A stretch of DNA of 64,000 bases, from IMG/VR virus record IMGVR_UViG_3300020577_003668, positions 41,546 to 105,545 of that record; one strand, written 5' to 3'. Position numbers and translations under genes: made by a program. The notes beneath the pieces are model-generated. The model was not told the origin of the DNA. It saw only the letters and a program-made list of their open reading frames with translations, and ran no database searches. This stretch comes from a virus. Taxonomy: Duplodnaviria; Caudoviricetes. Numbering within the stretch: the first letter of the stretch is position 1; each line of letters starts with the position of its first letter. Below are positions 18,910 through 52,715 of this stretch, piece after piece.

Positions 18910-19134
18910 AATTTCTGCTAGAAAGCTGGCACGTAACGAAGTATGAAAAGAGCTCTAGGATTTATTTTTATAATAGGCTCAGCGTTAGCTAGCTAGTTAC
19001 AAAAGGGTTGCTGCACTCCGCAACTGTATTCATTATTCTAGCCTGCTCGTCATTTATATTGGCCGAGCTAGAAGATATTAAGGATAAACTAAAATGAAAG
19101 ATTTATCGCGACAGCAGTCGATCGCCGCATCTAA

Positions 19135-19209
19135 TGCCGGTAAATCGACTGTATCAGATACTTGGCTTTGACCCAAGGTAAGTAGGTTAGATTCCTACAC
19201 CGGCTGCCA
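19135..19209 (+). tRNA. tRNA-Gln(UUG), atypical D arm
   Basis: tgccggt/accggct + GCCA; cttgg-CTTTGAC-ccaag. Confidence 0.85.
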
Positions 19210-19303: not shown

Positions 19304-19332
19304 TTGAATACGCCAAGTTATTAGCGTATAAT
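19304..19332 (+). promoter_or_regulatory. Promoter of the Y RNA/Ro60 operon
   Basis: TTGAAT-17-TATAAT. Confidence 0.85.
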
Positions 19333-19357
19333 AGATTTATCGGTTGAGAGATCAGCC

Positions 19358-19590
19358 AGCTAAAGTAAGCTCCTATTGTAGCGAGGTATTCAGTTACTTC
19401 ATATAATAGAACTGTCCTGTAAAACCTTGGAGATAATAAACTCTTTAAAGTTGGGACAAAAACAAGAACCTTGACAAACGCATGAAATAAAGCAAAGCTA
19501 ATGGAATACCGCTAGCTAGATAAGTGGTCAAGCAAAAATAACACTTATCGGTCCTGAATCGAATAATCTCGATAGGAACTTACTTTAGCT
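19358..19590 (+). ncRNA. Y RNA-like unit 1 (long cargo)
   Basis: agctaaagtaag/cttactttagct stem, TAGCG, attcag/ctgaat stem, TTACTTC. Confidence 0.7.
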
Positions 19591-19724
19591 GTAGCGACAT
19601 AGATAGTTACTTCTTGGTTCAACTCCAAGTTTCGGGGCTTTGAGTATTATGTACTCAAAGCCCCGAAACTGAGCATGGTGCTCAACAGCCAGCAATGGCT
19701 ACTATTTATAAATTTTACTCAGCT
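19587..19724 (+). ncRNA. YrlA-type Y RNA unit 2
   Basis: TAGCG..TTACTTC, then T arm cttgg-ttcaact-ccaag, looped acceptor-like stem, D-like arm (permuted tRNA order). Confidence 0.82.
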
Positions 19725-19731
19725 TCTTAAT

Positions 19732-19887
19732 ATTGTGTGGTGTTAGAAACGGTTACTTCATTTTGGATATGACTGTATGTGGGTTCGAGTCCCGCCGGCC
19801 CTAATAAATGTACTAAGTATATTTATTAGGGCCGTAGGCAAATTGGTAAAGCCGGTAAAAAGCTCTGTTTCGCCTTGTTCCCACAGT
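19732..19887 (+). ncRNA. YrlA-type Y RNA unit 3
   Basis: TGGTG..TTACTTC, loop TT-TGG-AT, T arm gtggg-ttcgagt-cccgc, looped acceptor stem, D arm taggcaaattggtaaagcc, 3' TTGTTC. Confidence 0.88.
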
Positions 19888-19897
19888 TTTTAAATAC

Positions 19898-20005
19898 GAC
19901 ATAGCGTATTATTAGTTACTTCACTCACCACTTTAGAGTATGAACTGGTTCAATCCCAGACAGAGCTAGTCGGAATTGCTCATTACTAATAAGTTTGTTC
20001 TTGTC
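19898..20005 (+). ncRNA. Y RNA-like unit 4
   Basis: gaca/tgtc, TAGCG, ttattag/ctaataa, TTACTTC, T arm ctgg-ttcaatc-ccag, TTGTTCT. Confidence 0.78.
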
Positions 20006-20032
20006 ACCTTCTAATTAATTAAAGAAAACAAA

Positions 20033-21364
20033 ATGTCTAGCCTAAATCGTACTGTATATCGCCAAAATATTACTGGTGCCCAAATGGCCCAGAATCATCA
20101 CGGCCTGAAGGTTACTGCCCTATCTCCTGAAGCCAAGCTGACTCGCCTAACCATGGCGCACATGCTTTGGGAAAAGCAATTCTATGTTGACGGACAGAAG
20201 TCCGCCGACCTAATGGCGTCCCTTGTTACCAAGGTGTCACCATCGTTCGTGTCCAACCTGGCTCGCCAGGCGCGCGATAAGTTCAAGCTTCGTCACGTGC
20301 CTCTGCACCTGATGCGTTCACTTGCGAAGTCAGGCGCTCTCAAGGCGGCTGATCTAGCTGAAGTGATCCAACGTCCGGACGAACTTTCCGAGTTCGTTTC
20401 CCTTTACTGGGCCGACAAGAAGCAACCTCTGTCCAACCAGGTTAAGAAGGGTCTTGCACTTGCCTTTGGTAAGTTCAACGAATACCAACTTGCTAAGTGG
20501 GATAAGAACTCCGCAGTGGTATCGCTGCGCGACGTGATGTTCCTAGCACACCCAAAGCCTGCTAACGCAGAGCAAGCTGCCCTTTTCAAGAAGGTAGCAG
20601 ACCAAAAGCTAGAAACCCCTGATACTTGGGAAACCAATCTATCTGCGGGTGCGGATAAGAAGGCTACTTTTACCACCCTAATGCAGGATGGTAAGCTAGG
20701 TGCGCTTGCGTTCCTACGTAACCTTCGTAACATGGTGGAATCTGGTGTATCCGAATCTCTGATTCGTGATTACTCCAAGACAGTTAACACTGATCGTGTT
20801 CTACCTTTCCGTTTCCTTGCGGCAGCCCGCATTGTTCCTCAATTTGAGGACATGCTAGAAGCAATGATGTTCCGTTCCTGCGAAGGTATGGAAAAGCTGC
20901 CAGGCAAGACTAAGCTATACGTAGACGTTTCCGGCTCCATGTATACCCCTAAGGTTAGTGAAAAGTCCGACCTAACACGTCAGGATGCTTCGCTTGCCCT
21001 AGCTATTCTGTGTCGGGAACTATGCGAAGAAGTAGAAATCTACAGCTTCAGCGGAAAATCTCTACGTATTGCCCCTCGCCGAGGGTTTGCTCTAGCAGAC
21101 GCTATCAAGACCAGCCAAGGCTGCTCTGGTACTCAGCTAGGACATAGTCTGAAAGAAACCGAATCTAAAGCTGATCGCATCGTTGTAATCACTGATGAAC
21201 AATCTAGTGATATGCCTTCTGCTCCTTTTGGTGGAGCCAAGGGTTACCTAATCAACGTAGGTAGCTATCAGAACGGCGTTAACCATAACGCCTGGACTAG
21301 CATTACTGGCTTCTCCGAAGCTGTATTTAGCTATATCCAAATGTTCGAACGCGAAGGCGTTTAA
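20033..21364 (+). CDS. Ro60/Rsr-like TROVE + vWA domain RNA-binding protein
   Basis: LWEKQFY, LRHVP, QRPDEL, FNEYQLAKW, LRDVMFLAHPKP, TWET, LRNLRNM, LPFRF, MIDAS DVSGSM and ITDEQ. Confidence 0.95.
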   Translation: MSSLNRTVYRQNITGAQMAQNHHGLKVTALSPEAKLTRLTMAHMLWEKQFYVDGQKSADLMASLVTKVSPSFVSNLARQARDKFKLRHVPLHLMRSLAKSGALKAADLAEVIQRPDELSEFVSLYWADKKQPLSNQVKKGLALAFGKFNEYQLAKWDKNSAVVSLRDVMFLAHPKPANAEQAALFKKVADQKLETPDTWETNLSAGADKKATFTTLMQDGKLGALAFLRNLRNMVESGVSESLIRDYSKTVNTDRVLPFRFLAAARIVPQFEDMLEAMMFRSCEGMEKLPGKTKLYVDVSGSMYTPKVSEKSDLTRQDASLALAILCRELCEEVEIYSFSGKSLRIAPRRGFALADAIKTSQGCSGTQLGHSLKETESKADRIVVITDEQSSDMPSAPFGGAKGYLINVGSYQNGVNHNAWTSITGFSEAVFSYIQMFEREGV

Positions 21365-21369
21365 TACCT

Positions 21370-21612
21370 TTTCCCAGTAATCGACGAGGCTAGTGCCGCA
21401 CTAGTACTGGGAATAAAAACCACCTCCGGATAGGTCGGGGTTCGACTAAACTAAGAAGCGATAAGAAACCACACGCTGGCCGGTGACATTGGTGGAAGCC
21501 TTAGGGAAGGGGTCGACAATTAGGGTCAAAGCCTTATAAATAAATCTCCATTAATGACTGACCTGTAGTCAAGCAGGACGTACCCCCCAGATGGGGGTGA
21601 GAGAACCCAAAG
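21370..21612 (+). ncRNA. Putative structured ncRNA after Ro60
   Basis: ttcccagta/tactgggaa and ccccc/ggggg hairpins; ORF-free. Confidence 0.4.
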
Positions 21613-21615
21613 CTT

Positions 21616-21710
21616 TAGGGCTTTGGTAAGTATTTAGCGTATGGAATAGGTACTTCACTTGTAACGAAACCCACCCTTTTCCGCTTGTTCTAATACTTTC
21701 CAAAGCCTTA
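21616..21710 (+). ncRNA. Y RNA-like unit 5 (minimal)
   Basis: ggctttgg.aagtatt/aatactt.ccaaagcc, TAGCG, TACTTC, loop CT-TGT-AA, TTGTTCT. Confidence 0.78.
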
Positions 21711-21789
21711 GCGATATAAACAGTTACTTCAATTTTTCCTTCCACGAAAACTCGCCGAAAGGCAGTACGCTGTTTAGCCTGATCTAGGC
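21705..21789 (+). ncRNA. Y RNA-like unit 6
   Basis: gcct/aggc, TAGCG, taaacag/ctgttta, TTACTTC, ASL ttttc-CTTCCAC-gaaaa. Confidence 0.78.
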
Positions 21790-21800
21790 CCCTATTAAAT

Positions 21801-21917
21801 CCTTAGCGAATTTATCAGCTACATCCGCCAGTGGGTAAGACCACACTAATCATCTAGAGGCTGTCAATGGAATAAACAGTCCAGTCGAAAGACTATCTCT
21901 GATATAATTGTTCTAGG
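21801..21917 (+). ncRNA. Y RNA-like unit 7
   Basis: cct/agg, TAGCG, tatcag/ctgata, CTACATC variant, TTGTTCT. Confidence 0.7.
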
Positions 21918-21929
21918 TGTATATTTATT

Positions 21930-22019
21930 ATGAAAAGAACTATTCTTGATTACTGCATCTACTTATTCATTCTAGCAGTAGCAATTTTTAGTGTAATTTA
22001 TCCCTTATGGCCGAAGTAA
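21930..22019 (+). CDS. 29-aa membrane peptide (not in ORF track)
   Basis: MKRTILDYCIYLFILAVAIFSVIYPLWPK; AGGT RBS-like element. Confidence 0.5.
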   Translation: MKRTILDYCIYLFILAVAIFSVIYPLWPK

Positions 22020-22369: not shown

Positions 22370-22704
22370 GATTGTCGTAATTCGGATCAAGCAGATGTGG
22401 GCCAGACGGGGCTTCGCCGCCCCCACCTCCACCAGTTAGTATAGAGTATAGATGCGCATCTAGTAATAGGCTAAGACCTAACAGAAATGTTCTCTGTACT
22501 AACTAATGGGGGTGAATATGTTTTCGATGGCGCAAATAAGTGAGATACGCGACACGGTAGGCGATGACCGTTAATCAAGCAAAACCTTTAAATGCAGCAA
22601 ACGATGCATACTTCGGAGAAGAACGCCTAGCGGCGTAATCCCGATGTAGGAGCTATCCTATATCAAACAAAATAGTTGGAGCGGCCCTGTCCATAAACAG
22701 GGCT
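22370..22704 (+). ncRNA. ssrA: Permuted two-piece tmRNA
   Basis: Acceptor piece ends cacctcc-A-CCA (22434); hairpin spacer; coding piece starts GGGGGTG (22508) with G3-U70; tag AANDAYFGEERLAA* at 22594-22638. Confidence 0.92.
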
Positions 22705-51540: not shown

Positions 51541-52715
51541 TAACAAAATTTAGACTTGAAATTTTTCAACAACTGTTATATAATTATTATACTGGTATAA
51601 AAATACAGGAATAATAAAATGATAGATGTAGAAAAAGTATTAAATGAATATGGTATTGACAAGGCTAGAGACCTATTTTTAAGAGAAGGATATACTCTTA
51701 CTCAGTTTCATTTAGAAACTAAATTAAGTACTAGTAAAAATAGAACTTCGCAGAGAGTGTATGAAGAAGTATATAGAATACTCGGTATTACCGAGATTCC
51801 TTATAAAGAAGATACACAGCCTGTTAGAAAATTTAAATTAGAATTTGATAGAGTCTCCGGCAAGTACTGGGAGTCTGACTATATAGTAGAGGTTCTACTA
51901 GATAAGCTACAAAATCCAATACTTAATAAGGCGGAGAATAGAGAGAGATACGTAATAGGTTTCCCTAAACACCCTAATTCGGATCCTACGTCTAATCAAA
52001 TTAAAGCACATATTGTTCAATGGGAAATATTAAATGAACAATATGTGCCTAGTAATCATTGGGTAATACCCGTAGATGATGATTATACTAACTTAGATAT
52101 GGATAACTGGGTTTTGGTAAATACGACCGAATTTAAGTCAGATAGATTTACCAGTGAAGGTAACCCTTCATATAAGCACGGAAAATCAGGAAGACATAAG
52201 TTAGGCGGCTGGGCGTTAATTAGTAAAAATAGTATTAATAAGCATAGATTCTGTACAAGATGTAATACAGATAAAGGTTTAATAGTGCATCATATTATTA
52301 ACTATCATCTATTTACTAATCCCATGGAAGCGCATAATATAGATAATTTATTAGTATTATGCCAAAGTTGTCATGCCAAAATACATCTAACTAATCTAAA
52401 TATAAAGGCCCTTATTGAGGAAACTCAATATAGCAAATTACTTAAATTGCTGGAAACTCTCAAGAGCCAAGTTCCAGACTCCATGAAGGAAACTTACGTG
52501 GACGTAGAAAAGCAACTTGGACTAACAGACAATCAGCAGCCAAGCACCTAAAGAAAAGTATCTAAGGTGAAGGTTCAACGACTATCCATTTATGGAGTAG
52601 GACCGAAGACGGTTCGAAAAAGGTAATACCCTATTAATTATGGGTAATGATATAGTCTGAGCTATATAGAAATATATAGAGAGAATACGGAATCGGTATT
52701 CTCGTAACATAACTG
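51541..52715 (+). mobile_element. Group I intron in nrdJ
   Basis: Exon ends in U, intron ends in G; P aaattgctggaa, Q aatcagcagcc, R gttcaacgacta, S atgatatagtct; splicing restores AVTA|IKPEGT. Confidence 0.93.
51619..52551 (+). CDS. Intron-encoded HNH endonuclease
   Basis: CTRC..VHHI..NLLVLCQSCHAKIH; the 3' end runs through the P and Q elements. Confidence 0.9.
   Translation: MIDVEKVLNEYGIDKARDLFLREGYTLTQFHLETKLSTSKNRTSQRVYEEVYRILGITEIPYKEDTQPVRKFKLEFDRVSGKYWESDYIVEVLLDKLQNPILNKAENRERYVIGFPKHPNSDPTSNQIKAHIVQWEILNEQYVPSNHWVIPVDDDYTNLDMDNWVLVNTTEFKSDRFTSEGNPSYKHGKSGRHKLGGWALISKNSINKHRFCTRCNTDKGLIVHHIINYHLFTNPMEAHNIDNLLVLCQSCHAKIHLTNLNIKALIEETQYSKLLKLLETLKSQVPDSMKETYVDVEKQLGLTDNQQPST

What the first reader, a model, noticed from the sequence alone, without database searches (positions are those of the whole stretch)
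19304..21917. Phage Ro60 operon with seven Y-RNA units carrying different cargo
Seen: one promoter, four units before and three after a TROVE/vWA gene. Each unit has the same frame (outer stem, TAGCG, inner stem, TTACTTC, cargo, inner stem, TTGTTCT-like, outer stem) with covarying stems. Cargo differs: full permuted T-acceptor-D domains (units 2, 3), a T arm with little else (4), bare anticodon-like loops for Thr-UGU (5) and Gly-UCC (6), a Pro-UGG loop (3), and unrelated multi-hairpin domains (1, 7). Units 1/2 and 5/6 share overlapping stem nucleotides. Known: Ro60/Rsr binds Y RNAs, YrlA RNAs mimic tRNA, and in Deinococcus a Y RNA tethers Rsr to PNPase. Inference: a modular RNP system where one protein displays a library of RNA adaptors or decoys. 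This is my best candidate for an undescribed system in the window.
Basis: partly seen in the sequence, partly recalled or inferred. Interest (0 to 1): 0.9.

Follow-up and report, generated by a model that had tools for sequence, protein, structure and literature searches.

The report
Phage Ro60 with seven Y RNAs
A complete uncultured phage encodes a Ro60 (TROVE) protein flanked by seven small-RNA genes with one conserved presumed protein-binding frame but different inserts, several mimicking tRNAs or bare anticodon hairpins; the same unannotated arrays occur in over 100 other phage sequences, far beyond the two Y RNAs per phage described so far.

Summary
Seven units with one frame flank a genuine Ro60 gene (20033-21364). 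The frame reads: outer stem, UAGYG loop, inner stem, UUACUUC, cargo, inner stem, UUGUUCY loop, outer stem. A covariance model built from relatives finds 225 full-frame copies in 100 related loci, 224 on the Ro60 strand. Both stems covary strongly (score 0.93 against 0.23 for shuffles).

The frame is a divergent YrlA-type module. Rfam's YrlA model aligns to it but always below its threshold. Arrays of 2-8 units are normal in this phage clade. They also occur, unannotated, in Caulobacter CcrColossus, Xanthomonas, crAss-like and Microcystis phages.

The cargo claims are partly right. U3 is a complete circularly permuted tRNA (anticodon UGG). U5 is an anticodon-hairpin mimic (UGU). The Gly-UCC claim for U6 fails. 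U4 has more than a T arm.

The new point is that 47 of 179 non-redundant units carry a stem plus a CU-NNU-AA loop (about 1 expected). Only the anticodon positions vary between otherwise identical orthologs.

Phage Ro60 with two Y RNAs is already published (phage phiLo, 2025), so this is a new variant of a known kind. No expression or binding data could be obtained.

The parts
19304..19332 (+). Promoter-like site TTGAAT-17-TATAAT just upstream of unit 1
   Evidence: 10/12 match. Such sites are not enriched over shuffles in this region (5 found, 5.9 expected), so this is a candidate only.
19357..19591 (+). Unit 1. The frame has a 21/22-bp outer stem, TAGCGAGGT, inner stem ATTCAG/CTGAAT and TTACTTC. 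The cargo is 153 nt, multi-hairpin and not tRNA-like.
   Evidence: z = -6.9. The CM finds the 5' half only. The 3' loop CGAATAATCT is a weak match to UUGUUCY. The MFE fold keeps the outer stem but not the inner stem. The cargo has no homolog in relatives.
19587..19724 (+). Unit 2. Outer stem AGCTG/CAGCT shares 19587-19591 with unit 1. Inner stem ATAGATAG/CTATTTAT. Cargo is a T-arm-like hairpin (CTTGG-TTCAACT-CCAAG), a 19-bp hairpin, a D-like hairpin and one extra hairpin.
   Evidence: z = -7.9. The CM finds the 5' half only. No Rfam YrlA hit.
19737..19885 (+). Unit 3. Frame is TGTG / GTGTTA / GAAACGG / TTACTTC ... CTGTTTC / GCCTTGTTCC / CACA. Cargo is a complete circularly permuted tRNA mimic: anticodon-like hairpin TCAT-TTTGGAT-ATGA, T arm, 7-bp acceptor stem extended to an 18-bp hairpin, U8-A9 and a D arm.
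   Evidence: CM 45.0 bits, E 7e-11, not in the seed. Rfam YrlA 21.8 bits on 19772-19856. ARAGORN calls tRNA-Pro(UGG) only after re-permutation. z = -5.0.
19897..20002 (+). Unit 4. Frame is GACA / TAGCGTA / TTATTAG / TTACTTC ... CTAATAA / GTTTGTTCT / TGTC. Cargo is a hairpin with a 9-nt loop, a T arm (CTGG-TTCAATC-CCAG) and a D-like arm (GAGC-TAGTCGGAATT-GCTC). There is no acceptor hairpin.
   Evidence: CM 24.3 bits, E 1.4e-5, full frame. by analogy. z = -0.1, so stability alone gives no support.
20033..21364 (+). Ro60 ortholog, 443 aa: TROVE HEAT-repeat ring plus a vWA domain with a DxSxS MIDAS motif.
   Evidence: Pfam TROVE 9e-15. AF2 pLDDT 81. Foldseek TM about 0.7 to phage phiLo Ro60 (9l5y/9kop), Xenopus Ro (1yvp) and D. 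radiodurans Rsr (2nvo). D298, S300 and S302 are invariant in 25 homologs.
21441..21520 (+). Conserved structured element in the spacer after the gene. Nested stems CGACT/GGTCG and CTAAG/CTTAG enclose AAGCGAYAAGA and a variable hairpin. It lacks TTACTTC and TTGTTCT. It may be an eighth RNA of another class.
   Evidence: 86% identity to L004 over 97 nt, plus L042. RNAalifold finds 6 pairs with compensatory changes in 3 sequences. z = -0.35. Evidence is thin.
21615..21711 (+). Unit 5. It has a 19/20-bp outer stem, TAGCGTA, inner stem TGGAATAG/CTTTTCCG and GTACTTC. The cargo is an anticodon-hairpin mimic, UUC-A[CUUGUAA]C-GAA ('UGU').
   Evidence: CM 54.3 bits (in the seed). z = -4.4. Orthologs L061, L010 and L028 have clean 3-4-bp stems with loops CUUGUAA or CUGUUAA.
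21705..21789 (+). Unit 6. Outer stem GCCT/AGGC shares 21705-21711 with unit 5. Inner stem TAAACAG/CTGTTTA. Cargo is a loop ending in GAAAAC plus a GCC-GAAA-GGC tetraloop hairpin.
   Evidence: CM 33.9 bits, E 2e-7, not in the seed. A similar cargo occurs in L001 3585-3674. z = -1.7. The 'Gly-UCC anticodon loop' is not supported.
21799..21920 (+). Unit 7. Frame is CCT / TAGCGAATT / TATCAG / CTACATC ... CTGATA / TAATTGTTCT / AGG. The cargo is 73 nt with three small hairpins (one a GAAA tetraloop) and is not tRNA-like.
   Evidence: CM 14.7 bits, E 0.013, full frame with filters off.. z = -0.6. This is the weakest unit together with U1/U2 on the 3' side.

Best explanation
This is a phage Ro60 ribonucleoprotein locus. 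It holds one Ro60 (TROVE plus vWA) gene and seven genes for divergent YrlA-type Y RNAs, set inside the phage's tRNA island.

Each RNA has a constant module:
- an outer stem;
- an asymmetric internal loop, 5' UAGYG(WW) against 3' (NN)UUGUUCY;
- a 6-9-bp inner stem that ends in YAG/CUR;
- UUACUUC.

Inferred: this constant module is the Ro60-binding platform. It is the counterpart of the P1 stem and GNCGAAUGCUU motif of YrlA.

The variable module is inserted at the tip. It ranges from a complete circularly permuted tRNA with a closed acceptor end (U3), through partial tRNA elbows (U2, U4) and a bare anticodon-stem-loop mimic (U5), to non-tRNA hairpins (U1, U6, U7).

Inferred, by analogy with D. 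radiodurans, Salmonella and Thermus phage phiLo: during infection Ro60 binds each RNA, and the variable module couples or exposes the particle to different host RNA-handling proteins, such as PNPase and enzymes that recognise the tRNA elbow or anticodon loop. One protein is thereby re-purposed for several tasks in RNA decay, quality control or counter-defence.

Shown here:
- the protein fold;
- the conserved frame and its covariation;
- its exclusive association with Ro60 genes;
- the tRNA-like nature of the cargoes;
- selection on the anticodon-like loops.

Not shown: transcription, processing, Ro60 binding, partners.
For: **Protein**
- It is Ro60 by Pfam and by fold.

**Motif and frame**
- The motif clusters here well beyond chance.
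- All seven frames have both stems.
- 244 of 248 hits of a 5'-half profile lie on the Ro60 strand and none inside the gene. Median distances are 249 nt upstream and 191 nt downstream.
- The CM finds 225 full frames in 100 loci, 224 of them on the Ro60 strand.
- Window units U3 and U6 were not in the seed yet score 45 and 34 bits.
- Covariation: 94.5% of cells are paired, against 57% for shuffles and about 39% for slid partners. 13 of 14 pairs change on both sides.
- Five complete cultured-phage genomes (876 kb) give 7 CM hits, 5 of them beside Ro60.

**Relation to YrlA**
- Rfam YrlA aligns full-length to such units at 30-52 bits. Its P1 stem and GNCGAAUGCUU motif fall on the inner stem and CAG-UUACUUC.

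**tRNA-like cargo**
- Re-permuted cargoes are called tRNAs by ARAGORN in 35 of the 86 tested. None of 83 shuffled cargoes is called.

**Literature**
- Phage phiLo Ro60 binds two upstream Y-like RNAs and host PNPase (PMC12135203).
- Bacterial Y RNAs are modular and tRNA-like (PMC4201824).
Against: - There are no expression, end-mapping or binding data.
- No unit reaches Rfam's YrlA gathering score. The best is 21.8 bits in the window and 52.3 in relatives, against a threshold of 69.
- The strict GNCGAA(N)G motif is absent.
- The CM does not resolve the 3' partners of U1 and U2.
- U4, U6 and U7 are no more stable than shuffled sequence.
- The seed units were selected by a finder that demands pairing. 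This inflates the paired percentage, though not the non-seed hits or the strand bias.
- Overlapping outer stems mean that not all units can be excised intact with full stems.
- The phage lacks RtcB and Rnl2 ligases, so the bacterial repair-operon analogy does not carry over.
Confidence: 0.78

Rival explanations
1. Anticodon-specific decoys. The tRNA-like and anticodon-hairpin cargoes act mainly as competitive inhibitors or sponges for host tRNA-directed enzymes, above all the anticodon nucleases of anti-phage defence systems. Ro60 stabilises or positions the decoys. The variable 'anticodon' retargets a unit to whichever tRNA-cleaving enzyme the local hosts carry. This refines the function in the best explanation rather than excluding it.
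For: - 47 of 179 non-redundant units have a stem of at least 3 bp plus a CU-NNU-AA heptaloop right after UUACUUC. About 1.1 are expected, with a maximum of 5 in 200 shuffles.
- 66 of 179 have YU-NNN-RN loops, with U at position 36 in 48 of the 66.
- In 12 class B units the cargo is invariant except at loop positions 33-35.
- Three phages whose Ro60 genes differ by 8-16% carry units that differ only there, apart from one indel.
- The triplets are those of Asn, Ser, Lys, Thr and Arg tRNAs.
- Phage tRNAs are known to counter tRNA-cleaving defences (PMC11464382, PMC11455837).
- A competitive-inhibitor role was proposed for Salmonella YrlA (PMC7790460).
- A Ro60-like protein of phage Bas63 counters the Ppl defence (PMC11482910).
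Against: - No nuclease, binding or infection data exist.
- The hairpin stems are constant (UAGA/UCUA, UUCA/UGAA) and do not copy any particular tRNA's anticodon stem.
- Many units, including U1, U6 and U7, have no tRNA-like feature.
- The window's own U5 hairpin has an A.C mismatch at the closing pair.
- Variation at two loop positions could reflect relaxed constraint rather than retargeting.
- Ppl is not known to be a tRNA nuclease.
Confidence: 0.25
2. Cis-acting RNA structures of the tRNA/Ro60 transcript. On this reading the units are processing, stability or translational-control elements for the operon, not trans-acting Ro60 ligands.
For: - The units lie inside a tRNA island and may be co-transcribed with tRNAs and the Ro60 mRNA.
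- The 20-bp outer stems of U1 and U5 look like RNase III substrates, and adjacent units share stem nucleotides.
Against: - Unit number and order vary freely on both sides of the gene.
- The cargoes are tRNA mimics under selection.
- The frame is homologous to YrlA, an RNA shown to bind Ro60 in three bacteria (PMC4201824).
- The RsoM2USA units lie 5 and 30 kb from the gene.
Confidence: 0.07
3. Decayed or rearranged tRNA genes, or a selfish repeat spreading in the tRNA island, with no function of its own.
For: - The island holds many tRNAs and, according to earlier scan notes, non-canonical tRNAs.
- Several cargoes carry T-loop and D-loop sequences.
Against: - The stems covary while the loop motifs stay invariant across phages of Xanthomonas, Caulobacter, Bacteroides and cyanobacteria.
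- The units are not sequence repeats of each other.
- They are tied to Ro60 and not to tRNA genes in general.
- U3 is no closer to the phage's tRNA-Pro than to any other tRNA.
Confidence: 0.03

Closest known systems
YrlA (Rfam RF02553) and YrlB: bacterial and mycobacteriophage Y RNAs bound by Rsr/Ro60 (Chen et al. 2014, PMC4201824)
   Same: - They are encoded within a few kb of Ro60 on the same strand.
- A closing stem plus a conserved 5' motif sits at the base.
- The T arm, acceptor-like hairpin and D arm come in permuted order.
- Each genome has more than one Y RNA, and some are processed from one precursor.
- The Rfam model aligns full-length to units in relatives.
   Different: - All scores fall below the gathering cut-off.
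- The motif is CAG-UUACUUC instead of GNCGAAUGCUU.
- There is an extra conserved internal loop (UAGYG against UUGUUCY) and an outer stem, both outside the Rfam model.
- Many units carry a separate anticodon-like hairpin, so the mimic is a complete permuted tRNA.
- Other units keep only that hairpin.
- A locus has up to 7-8 units rather than 2-4.
Thermus phage phiLo Ro60 with Yrl1 and Yrl2 (PMC12135203; PDB 9KOP, 9L5Y)
   Same: - A phage-encoded Ro60 of the same fold (TM 0.70-0.75).
- The Y-like RNAs are encoded next to the gene.
- The proposed role is to co-opt host factors (PNPase) against host defences.
   Different: - phiLo has two RNAs, found through a CGAA motif in a bulge.
- Here seven RNAs share a different conserved frame and have tRNA or anticodon-mimic cargo.
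Metazoan Y RNAs and D. radiodurans Yrn1/Yrn2
   Same: - A modular plan: a Ro-binding stem formed by the 5' and 3' ends, plus a variable effector loop.
- Several paralogs per genome.
- A Y RNA tethers Ro60 to PNPase in Deinococcus.
   Different: - There is no sequence similarity.
- The Ro-binding bulged helix GGUCCGA/UUGACC is absent.
- The cargoes here are explicit tRNA or anticodon mimics.
Circularly permuted tRNA-like genes: the two-piece (permuted) tmRNA, one of which sits 450 nt downstream at 22373-22638
   Same: U3's T arm and acceptor region weakly match the permuted-tmRNA model (22.4 bits). The order T arm, acceptor 3' strand, intervening loop, acceptor 5' strand is the same.
   Different: - There is no CCA, no tag reading frame and no pseudoknots.
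- The acceptor end is closed into a hairpin.
- The unit is embedded in the Ro60 frame.

Membership tests
Ro60 / Rsr (TROVE) protein family | TROVE domain detectable by profile | tested here: met
   Pfam PF05731: E 9.2e-15, 55 bits against a cut-off of 23. phmmer to PDB 9l5y/9kop: E 5e-24.
Ro60 / Rsr (TROVE) protein family | Ring of HEAT-like helices closed by a vWA domain | tested here: met
   AF2 model with pLDDT 81 and pTM 0.76. Foldseek gives full-length matches, TM 0.65-0.75, to Ro60 of phage phiLo, Xenopus, human and D. radiodurans.
Ro60 / Rsr (TROVE) protein family | MIDAS motif DxSxS in the vWA domain | tested here: met
   D298, S300 and S302 (DVSGS) are invariant in 25 homologs. The Pfam vWA_Ro60 match alone is below its cut-off (19.9 against 27.7).
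YrlA (Rfam RF02553) | Score at or above the curated gathering threshold (69 bits) | tested here: not met
   Only U3 matches in the window, at 21.8 bits. No hit at or above threshold in L001-L017. The best relatives score 49.5 (L023) and 52.3 (L109).
YrlA (Rfam RF02553) | Encoded within about 4 kb of Ro60 on the same strand | tested here: met
   All seven units lie within 700 nt of the gene on the + strand. 224 of 225 family hits are on the Ro60 strand.
YrlA (Rfam RF02553) | GNCGAA(N)G motif near the 5' end | tested here: not met
   The aligned position reads YAG-UUACUUC. The other conserved loop reads UAGCGW. Only U7 (UAGCGAAU) contains CGAA.
YrlA (Rfam RF02553) | tRNA-like domain: T arm, acceptor-like hairpin and D arm in permuted order | tested here: met
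   Met for U3. Partial for U2 and U4. Absent in U1, U5, U6 and U7. Of the 86 long cargoes tested, 35 are called tRNAs after re-permutation, against 0 of 83 shuffled.
Y RNA (functional definition) | Stable small RNA bound by Ro60 in vivo | not testable with these tools
Canonical tRNA | Cloverleaf in native 5'-3' order with an open acceptor end | tested here: not met
   ARAGORN and the Rfam tRNA model call nothing inside the units. Only 3 of 83 long units in relatives are called in native order.

The most novel reading that the evidence does not exclude
Phages carry Ro60-bound RNAs that display a complete permuted tRNA, or just an anticodon stem-loop. The 'anticodon' of these displays evolves fast to match the tRNA species attacked by host anticodon nucleases or other tRNA-directed defences. 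Each array would then be a programmable set of anticodon-specific decoys or sensors, a counter-defence principle distinct from supplying nuclease-resistant tRNAs.
Probability: 0.22. Interest if true: 0.88.

Novelty: new variant of a known kind. Interest (0 to 1): 0.68.

Why it matters
**What it adds to knowledge of Y RNAs**
- Y RNAs are poorly understood outside a handful of species. In phages only one pair has been studied.
- This locus, and the covariance model derived from it, reveal a large uncatalogued phage branch of the YrlA family.
- The branch has a sharply defined candidate Ro60-binding module.
- It shows that phages routinely carry 2-8 such RNAs, rather than the 2-4 described per species.
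- The cargoes form a graded series, from a full permuted tRNA down to a bare anticodon hairpin.

**Why the anticodon signal matters**
- Selection falls on the two 'anticodon' positions while everything else is frozen. This gives a concrete, testable handle on what the tRNA mimicry of Y RNAs is for, an open question since 2014.

**Where it can be tested**
- The same arrays exist in tractable systems, so experiments are feasible:
  - Caulobacter phage CcrColossus;
  - Xanthomonas phages;
  - crAss-like phages of Bacteroides.

Tried and rejected
1. A simple additive frame score (stems plus motif matches) had a background of about 21 on either strand, against 21-27 for the real units. I dropped it in favour of nhmmer and Infernal models.
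2. An extension of the inner stem (alignment columns 14-16 with 64-66) is not supported: only 28.6% of cells pair. The internal loop is genuinely asymmetric.
3. BLAST of the U1, U4 and U7 cargoes against 111 loci found no homologs. These cargoes cannot be assessed comparatively.
6. I recalled that PARIS also cleaves tRNA-Asn and tRNA-Thr. The paper does not bear this out, and I make no such claim.
7. The RNA-repair-operon context was tested and is absent: no RtcB or Rnl2 ligase in the genome.
8. U3 as a recent copy of the phage's tRNA-Pro is rejected. It is 62-66% identical to all of the phage's tRNAs alike.
9. The supplement tables of Chen et al. 2014, which list phage YrlA loci, are not held. 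I could not check which phage units were already listed there.
10. The Sim et al. 2020 review is not held.


Full report
**Setting**

The window is part of a complete 105,545-bp virus record with direct terminal repeats. Earlier scan notes call it T5-like. I did not verify that.

The region lies in a tRNA island:
- ARAGORN finds 22 tRNAs.
- Rfam adds a permuted tmRNA at 22373-22638 and a group I intron at 52387-52679.

**The protein**

The ORF at 20033-21364 (443 aa) matches Pfam TROVE (E 9e-15) and, below cut-off, the Ro60 vWA domain.
- An AlphaFold2 model built on 25 homologs has pLDDT 81 and pTM 0.76.
- The model aligns over its full length (TM 0.65-0.75) to several solved structures:
  - Ro60 of Thermus phage phiLo (9L5Y/9KOP);
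  - Xenopus Ro (1YVP, 2I91);
  - human Ro60;
  - D. radiodurans Rsr (2NVO).
- The MIDAS residues D298, S300 and S302 are invariant.

It is a genuine Ro60 ortholog. The family is large: at least 8000 homologs in the protein collection.

**The seven units**

The motif TAGCG-N6-16-TACWTC occurs 7 times in the window, against 1.03 expected. Six copies lie on the + strand around the gene. A seventh unit (U3) has GTGTTA in place of TAGCG.

For each unit a script found the two complementary strands. This gives a common frame:
- outer stem;
- UAGCG(WW);
- inner stem ending YAG;
- NUACWUC;
- cargo;
- CUR-inner stem;
- (NN)UUGUUCU-like loop;
- outer stem.

The stems differ in sequence between units but all pair. 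U1 and U5 have 20-bp outer stems.

Stability against shuffles is high for U1, U2, U3 and U5 (z from -4.4 to -7.9). It is unremarkable for U4, U6 and U7. Those three rest on the comparative evidence.

**Comparative evidence**

I collected 106 loci encoding relatives of the protein (40-68% identity) from viral and metagenome contigs.

*Profile of the 5' half*
- It hits 248 places, 244 of them on the Ro60 strand and none inside the gene.
- The median distances are 249 nt upstream and 191 nt downstream.

*Alignment of short units*
- Sixty-four non-redundant short units align cleanly (A1).
- T8, G10, G12, the closing G, UACUUC, and the UC of UUGUUCY are invariant.
- On the named structure the outer stem is 98% paired and the inner stem 92%. 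Thirteen of 14 pairs change on both sides.
- The covariation score is 0.74, against 0.20 for shuffles and 0.09-0.14 for slid partners.
- A proposed extension of the inner stem fails.

*Covariance model*
- These units had been picked by a finder that requires pairing. I therefore built a covariance model (R1) and looked at non-seed hits.
- In the window, U3 scores 45.0 bits and U6 33.9 bits as full frames.
- With filters off, U4 (24.3) and U7 (14.7) follow. For U1 and U2 only the 5' half is found, because their cargoes (153 and 88 nt) are too long for the model.
- Across 100 loci the model finds 225 full frames at E <= 0.01, 224 of them on the Ro60 strand. This includes relatives with only 41-49% protein identity.
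- On the 130 distinct best hits, 94.5% of cells pair, against 57% for shuffles. The covariation score is 0.93 against 0.23.

*Array size*
- By a conservative count, complete loci with at least 54% protein identity carry 1-6 units, mostly 2-4. That count gives the window only 6 of its 7.
- L004 has about 8 units.
- Adjacent units overlap by 3-13 nt in 33 of 54 cases. The stem sharing is therefore a conserved design.

**Cultured phages**

tblastn finds the protein in named phages. None of the units found in them is annotated.

| Phage | Evidence | Units |
|---|---|---|
| Xanthomonas phage MET23-P3 | R1 (filters off) plus Rfam | About 5, upstream of the gene |
| Caulobacter phage CcrColossus | R1 (filters off) plus Rfam | About 7, upstream of the gene |
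| crAss-like cr106_1 | R1 (filters off) | 2-3, downstream of the gene |
| Microcystis phage Mvi-JY20 | R1 (filters off) | 1 |

Scanning the five complete genomes (876 kb) with default filters gives only 7 hits. Five lie beside Ro60. The other two are in Ralstonia RsoM2USA, on the gene's strand but 5 and 30 kb away.

**Relation to YrlA**

Rfam's YrlA model never reaches its gathering score of 69 bits:

| Where | Best score (bits) |
|---|---|
| U3 core, window | 21.8 |
| L001-L017 | no hit at gathering score |
| L023 | 49.5 |
| Xanthomonas phage (L109) | 52.3 |
| CcrColossus (L110) | 42.3 |

The full-length alignments are still informative:
- YrlA's P1 stem and the following AUGCUU fall on the inner stem and UUACUUC. 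P1 plus AUGCUU contains the GNCGAA(N)G motif that Chen et al. 2014 consider the Ro contact (PMC4201824).
- The UAGYG/UUGUUCY loop and the outer stem lie outside the Rfam model.

The frame is therefore a divergent, extended version of the YrlA base. I cannot tell which of its conserved motifs touches Ro60.

**Cargo**

Long units in relatives fold, inside the inner stem, in this order:
1. UUAC
2. An anticodon-like arm, whose 5' strand begins with the UUC of UUACUUC
3. A 5-nt variable loop such as AGGUC
4. A T arm
5. A closed acceptor-like hairpin
6. UA
7. A D arm
8. A tail

That is a complete tRNA, circularly permuted and opened between the D and anticodon arms.

As a formal test I re-permuted the cargoes in silico and ran ARAGORN:
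- 35 of the 86 long cargoes tested (83 from relatives plus the window's U2-U4) are called tRNAs. The window's U3 is called tRNA-Pro(UGG).
- None of 83 shuffled cargoes is called, in three replicates.
- Only 3 are called in native order.

U3 re-permutes to a 74-nt cloverleaf. It is no closer to the phage's tRNA-Pro than to its other tRNAs.

The remaining window units:
- U2 has a T arm, a 19-bp hairpin and a D-like hairpin.
- U4 has a hairpin with a 9-nt loop, a T arm and a D-like arm, but no acceptor hairpin.
- U6 has a loop ending in GAAAAC plus a GAAA-capped hairpin, also seen in L001.
- U1 and U7 are non-tRNA.

**Anticodon-hairpin mimics**

Many short units keep only the first hairpin. The counts below are over 179 non-redundant units.

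| Feature | Observed | Chance or context |
|---|---|---|
| Stem of at least 3 bp closing a CU-NNU-AA heptaloop, nearly always starting 8-13 nt into the anchor | 47 units | 1.1 expected (max 5 in 200 shuffles) |
| Looser pattern YU-NNN-RN | 66 units | U36 in 48, A37 in 55, A38 in 51 |

The triplets are diverse: GUU 10-11, CUU 7, GCU 7-8, UGU 6, UUU 4, UCU 3 and others.

Evidence that selection acts on the loop:
- In one class (UAGA-loop-UCUA-ACCA) the whole cargo is invariant in 12 phages whose frame stems have diverged and covaried. Only loop positions 33-35 vary.
- L003, L009 and L002 differ by 8-16% in the Ro60 gene and by more in the flanks. Their units are identical except for the loops CUUUUAA, CAGCUAA and CUGCUAA, plus one indel.
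- So the hairpin is under strong purifying selection while the 'anticodon' turns over.

The window's U5 belongs to the UUCA-loop-UGAA class, with loop CUUGUAA. It has an A.C mismatch at the closing pair. Its orthologs have clean stems.

'Gly-UCC' in U6 does not.

**What is known**

- Y RNAs are already described as modular: a Ro-binding stem plus an effector module.
- Characterised bacteria have 2-4 of them.
- YrlA-like RNAs were reported near Ro60 in more than 250 bacteria and 22 phages (PMC4201824).
- In 2025 the Ro60 of Thermus phage phiLo was shown to bind two upstream Y-like RNAs and to assemble with host PNPase. A counter-defence role was proposed (PMC12135203).
- A Ro60-like protein of E. 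coli phage Bas63 counters the Ppl defence. There the Y RNAs were only conjectured (PMC11482910).
- Hughes et al. suggested that YrlA's tRNA-like domain might competitively inhibit an anticodon nuclease (PMC7790460).
- Phage tRNAs are known to neutralise tRNA-cleaving defences (PMC11464382, PMC11455837).

I found no paper describing any of the following:
- arrays of this size;
- this frame;
- complete permuted tRNAs with an anticodon arm inside Y RNAs;
- anticodon-hairpin-only Y RNAs.

The search has gaps. Chen's supplementary tables and the 2020 review were not available.

**Mechanism**

Most likely (about 0.78), the units are Y RNAs of the phage Ro60. The constant frame binds the protein. The variable tip presents tRNA-like or other shapes to host RNA-handling proteins.

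The specific output is inferred, not shown. It could be PNPase tethering, quality control of the phage's heavy tRNA output, or titration of tRNA-directed defence enzymes.

The selection pattern on the anticodon-like loops favours recognition by something that reads anticodon loops. That makes the decoy or sensor reading attractive, but it is unproven (about 0.2-0.25).

This phage lacks RtcB and Rnl2 ligases, so a repair-operon role is unlikely.

**Limits**

- There are no expression, processing or binding data.
- The single-promoter claim is unverified.
- The 3' halves of U1 and U2 rest on my finder alone.

**Verdict**

This is a new and much richer variant of the known Ro60/Y RNA system, widespread in phages, with a testable new feature in the anticodon-mimic cargoes.

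Noticed in passing
window 21441-21520: A conserved structured element lies between the Ro60 stop codon and unit 5. Nested stems enclose AAGCGAYAAGA and a variable, covarying hairpin. It is shared with L004 (86% identity over 97 nt) and L042, and it lacks the UUACUUC/UUGUUCY frame. It may be a different class of Ro60-associated RNA.
   Followed up: partly
window 18973-19046: A weak CM hit (7 bits, E 3.4) has outer stem TAGGCT/AGCCTG, CAGCG, TTACAAA in place of TTACTTC, and TTATTCT. It may be a degenerate eighth unit, upstream of two tRNAs and of the promoter-like site.
   Followed up: partly
window 19135-19206: Rfam calls a tRNA here (39.8 bits) that ARAGORN does not. The anticodon loop reads CUUUGAC (UUG, Gln-like). 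It sits directly before tRNA-Arg(ACG) and the Y RNA array.
   Followed up: no
window 21930-22019: A short ORF of 29 codons encodes a hydrophobic peptide (MKRTILDYCIYLFILAVAIFSVIYPLWPK). It lies between unit 7 and tRNA-Ser(GCU).
   Followed up: no
window 22373-22638, and L002, L005, L008, L010: A permuted (two-piece) tmRNA gene lies 450 nt after the array. Relatives also match the Betaproteobacteria tmRNA model, which hints at betaproteobacterial hosts. Ro60, the Y RNAs, the tRNAs and the tmRNA form one RNA island in many of these phages.
   Followed up: no
L110 (CcrColossus) 1673-1740: The annotated tRNA-Gln overlaps a sub-threshold YrlA match (1708-1804) inside the run of about 7 Y-like units. 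Two annotated 'terminators' also fall in this run. The RefSeq annotation of this intergenic region may need revision.
   Followed up: no
Ralstonia phage RsoM2USA record MG752970.1, 49996-50071 and 75428-75507 (- strand): Two strong frame matches (51 and 49 bits) lie 5 and 30 kb from the Ro60 gene. No significant unit lies beside the gene. In this jumbo phage the Y RNA genes appear to be dispersed.
   Followed up: no
L088 2514-2593 (- strand): This is the only one of 225 family hits on the strand opposite to Ro60 (45.9 bits). It is a divergently oriented unit upstream of the gene.
   Followed up: no
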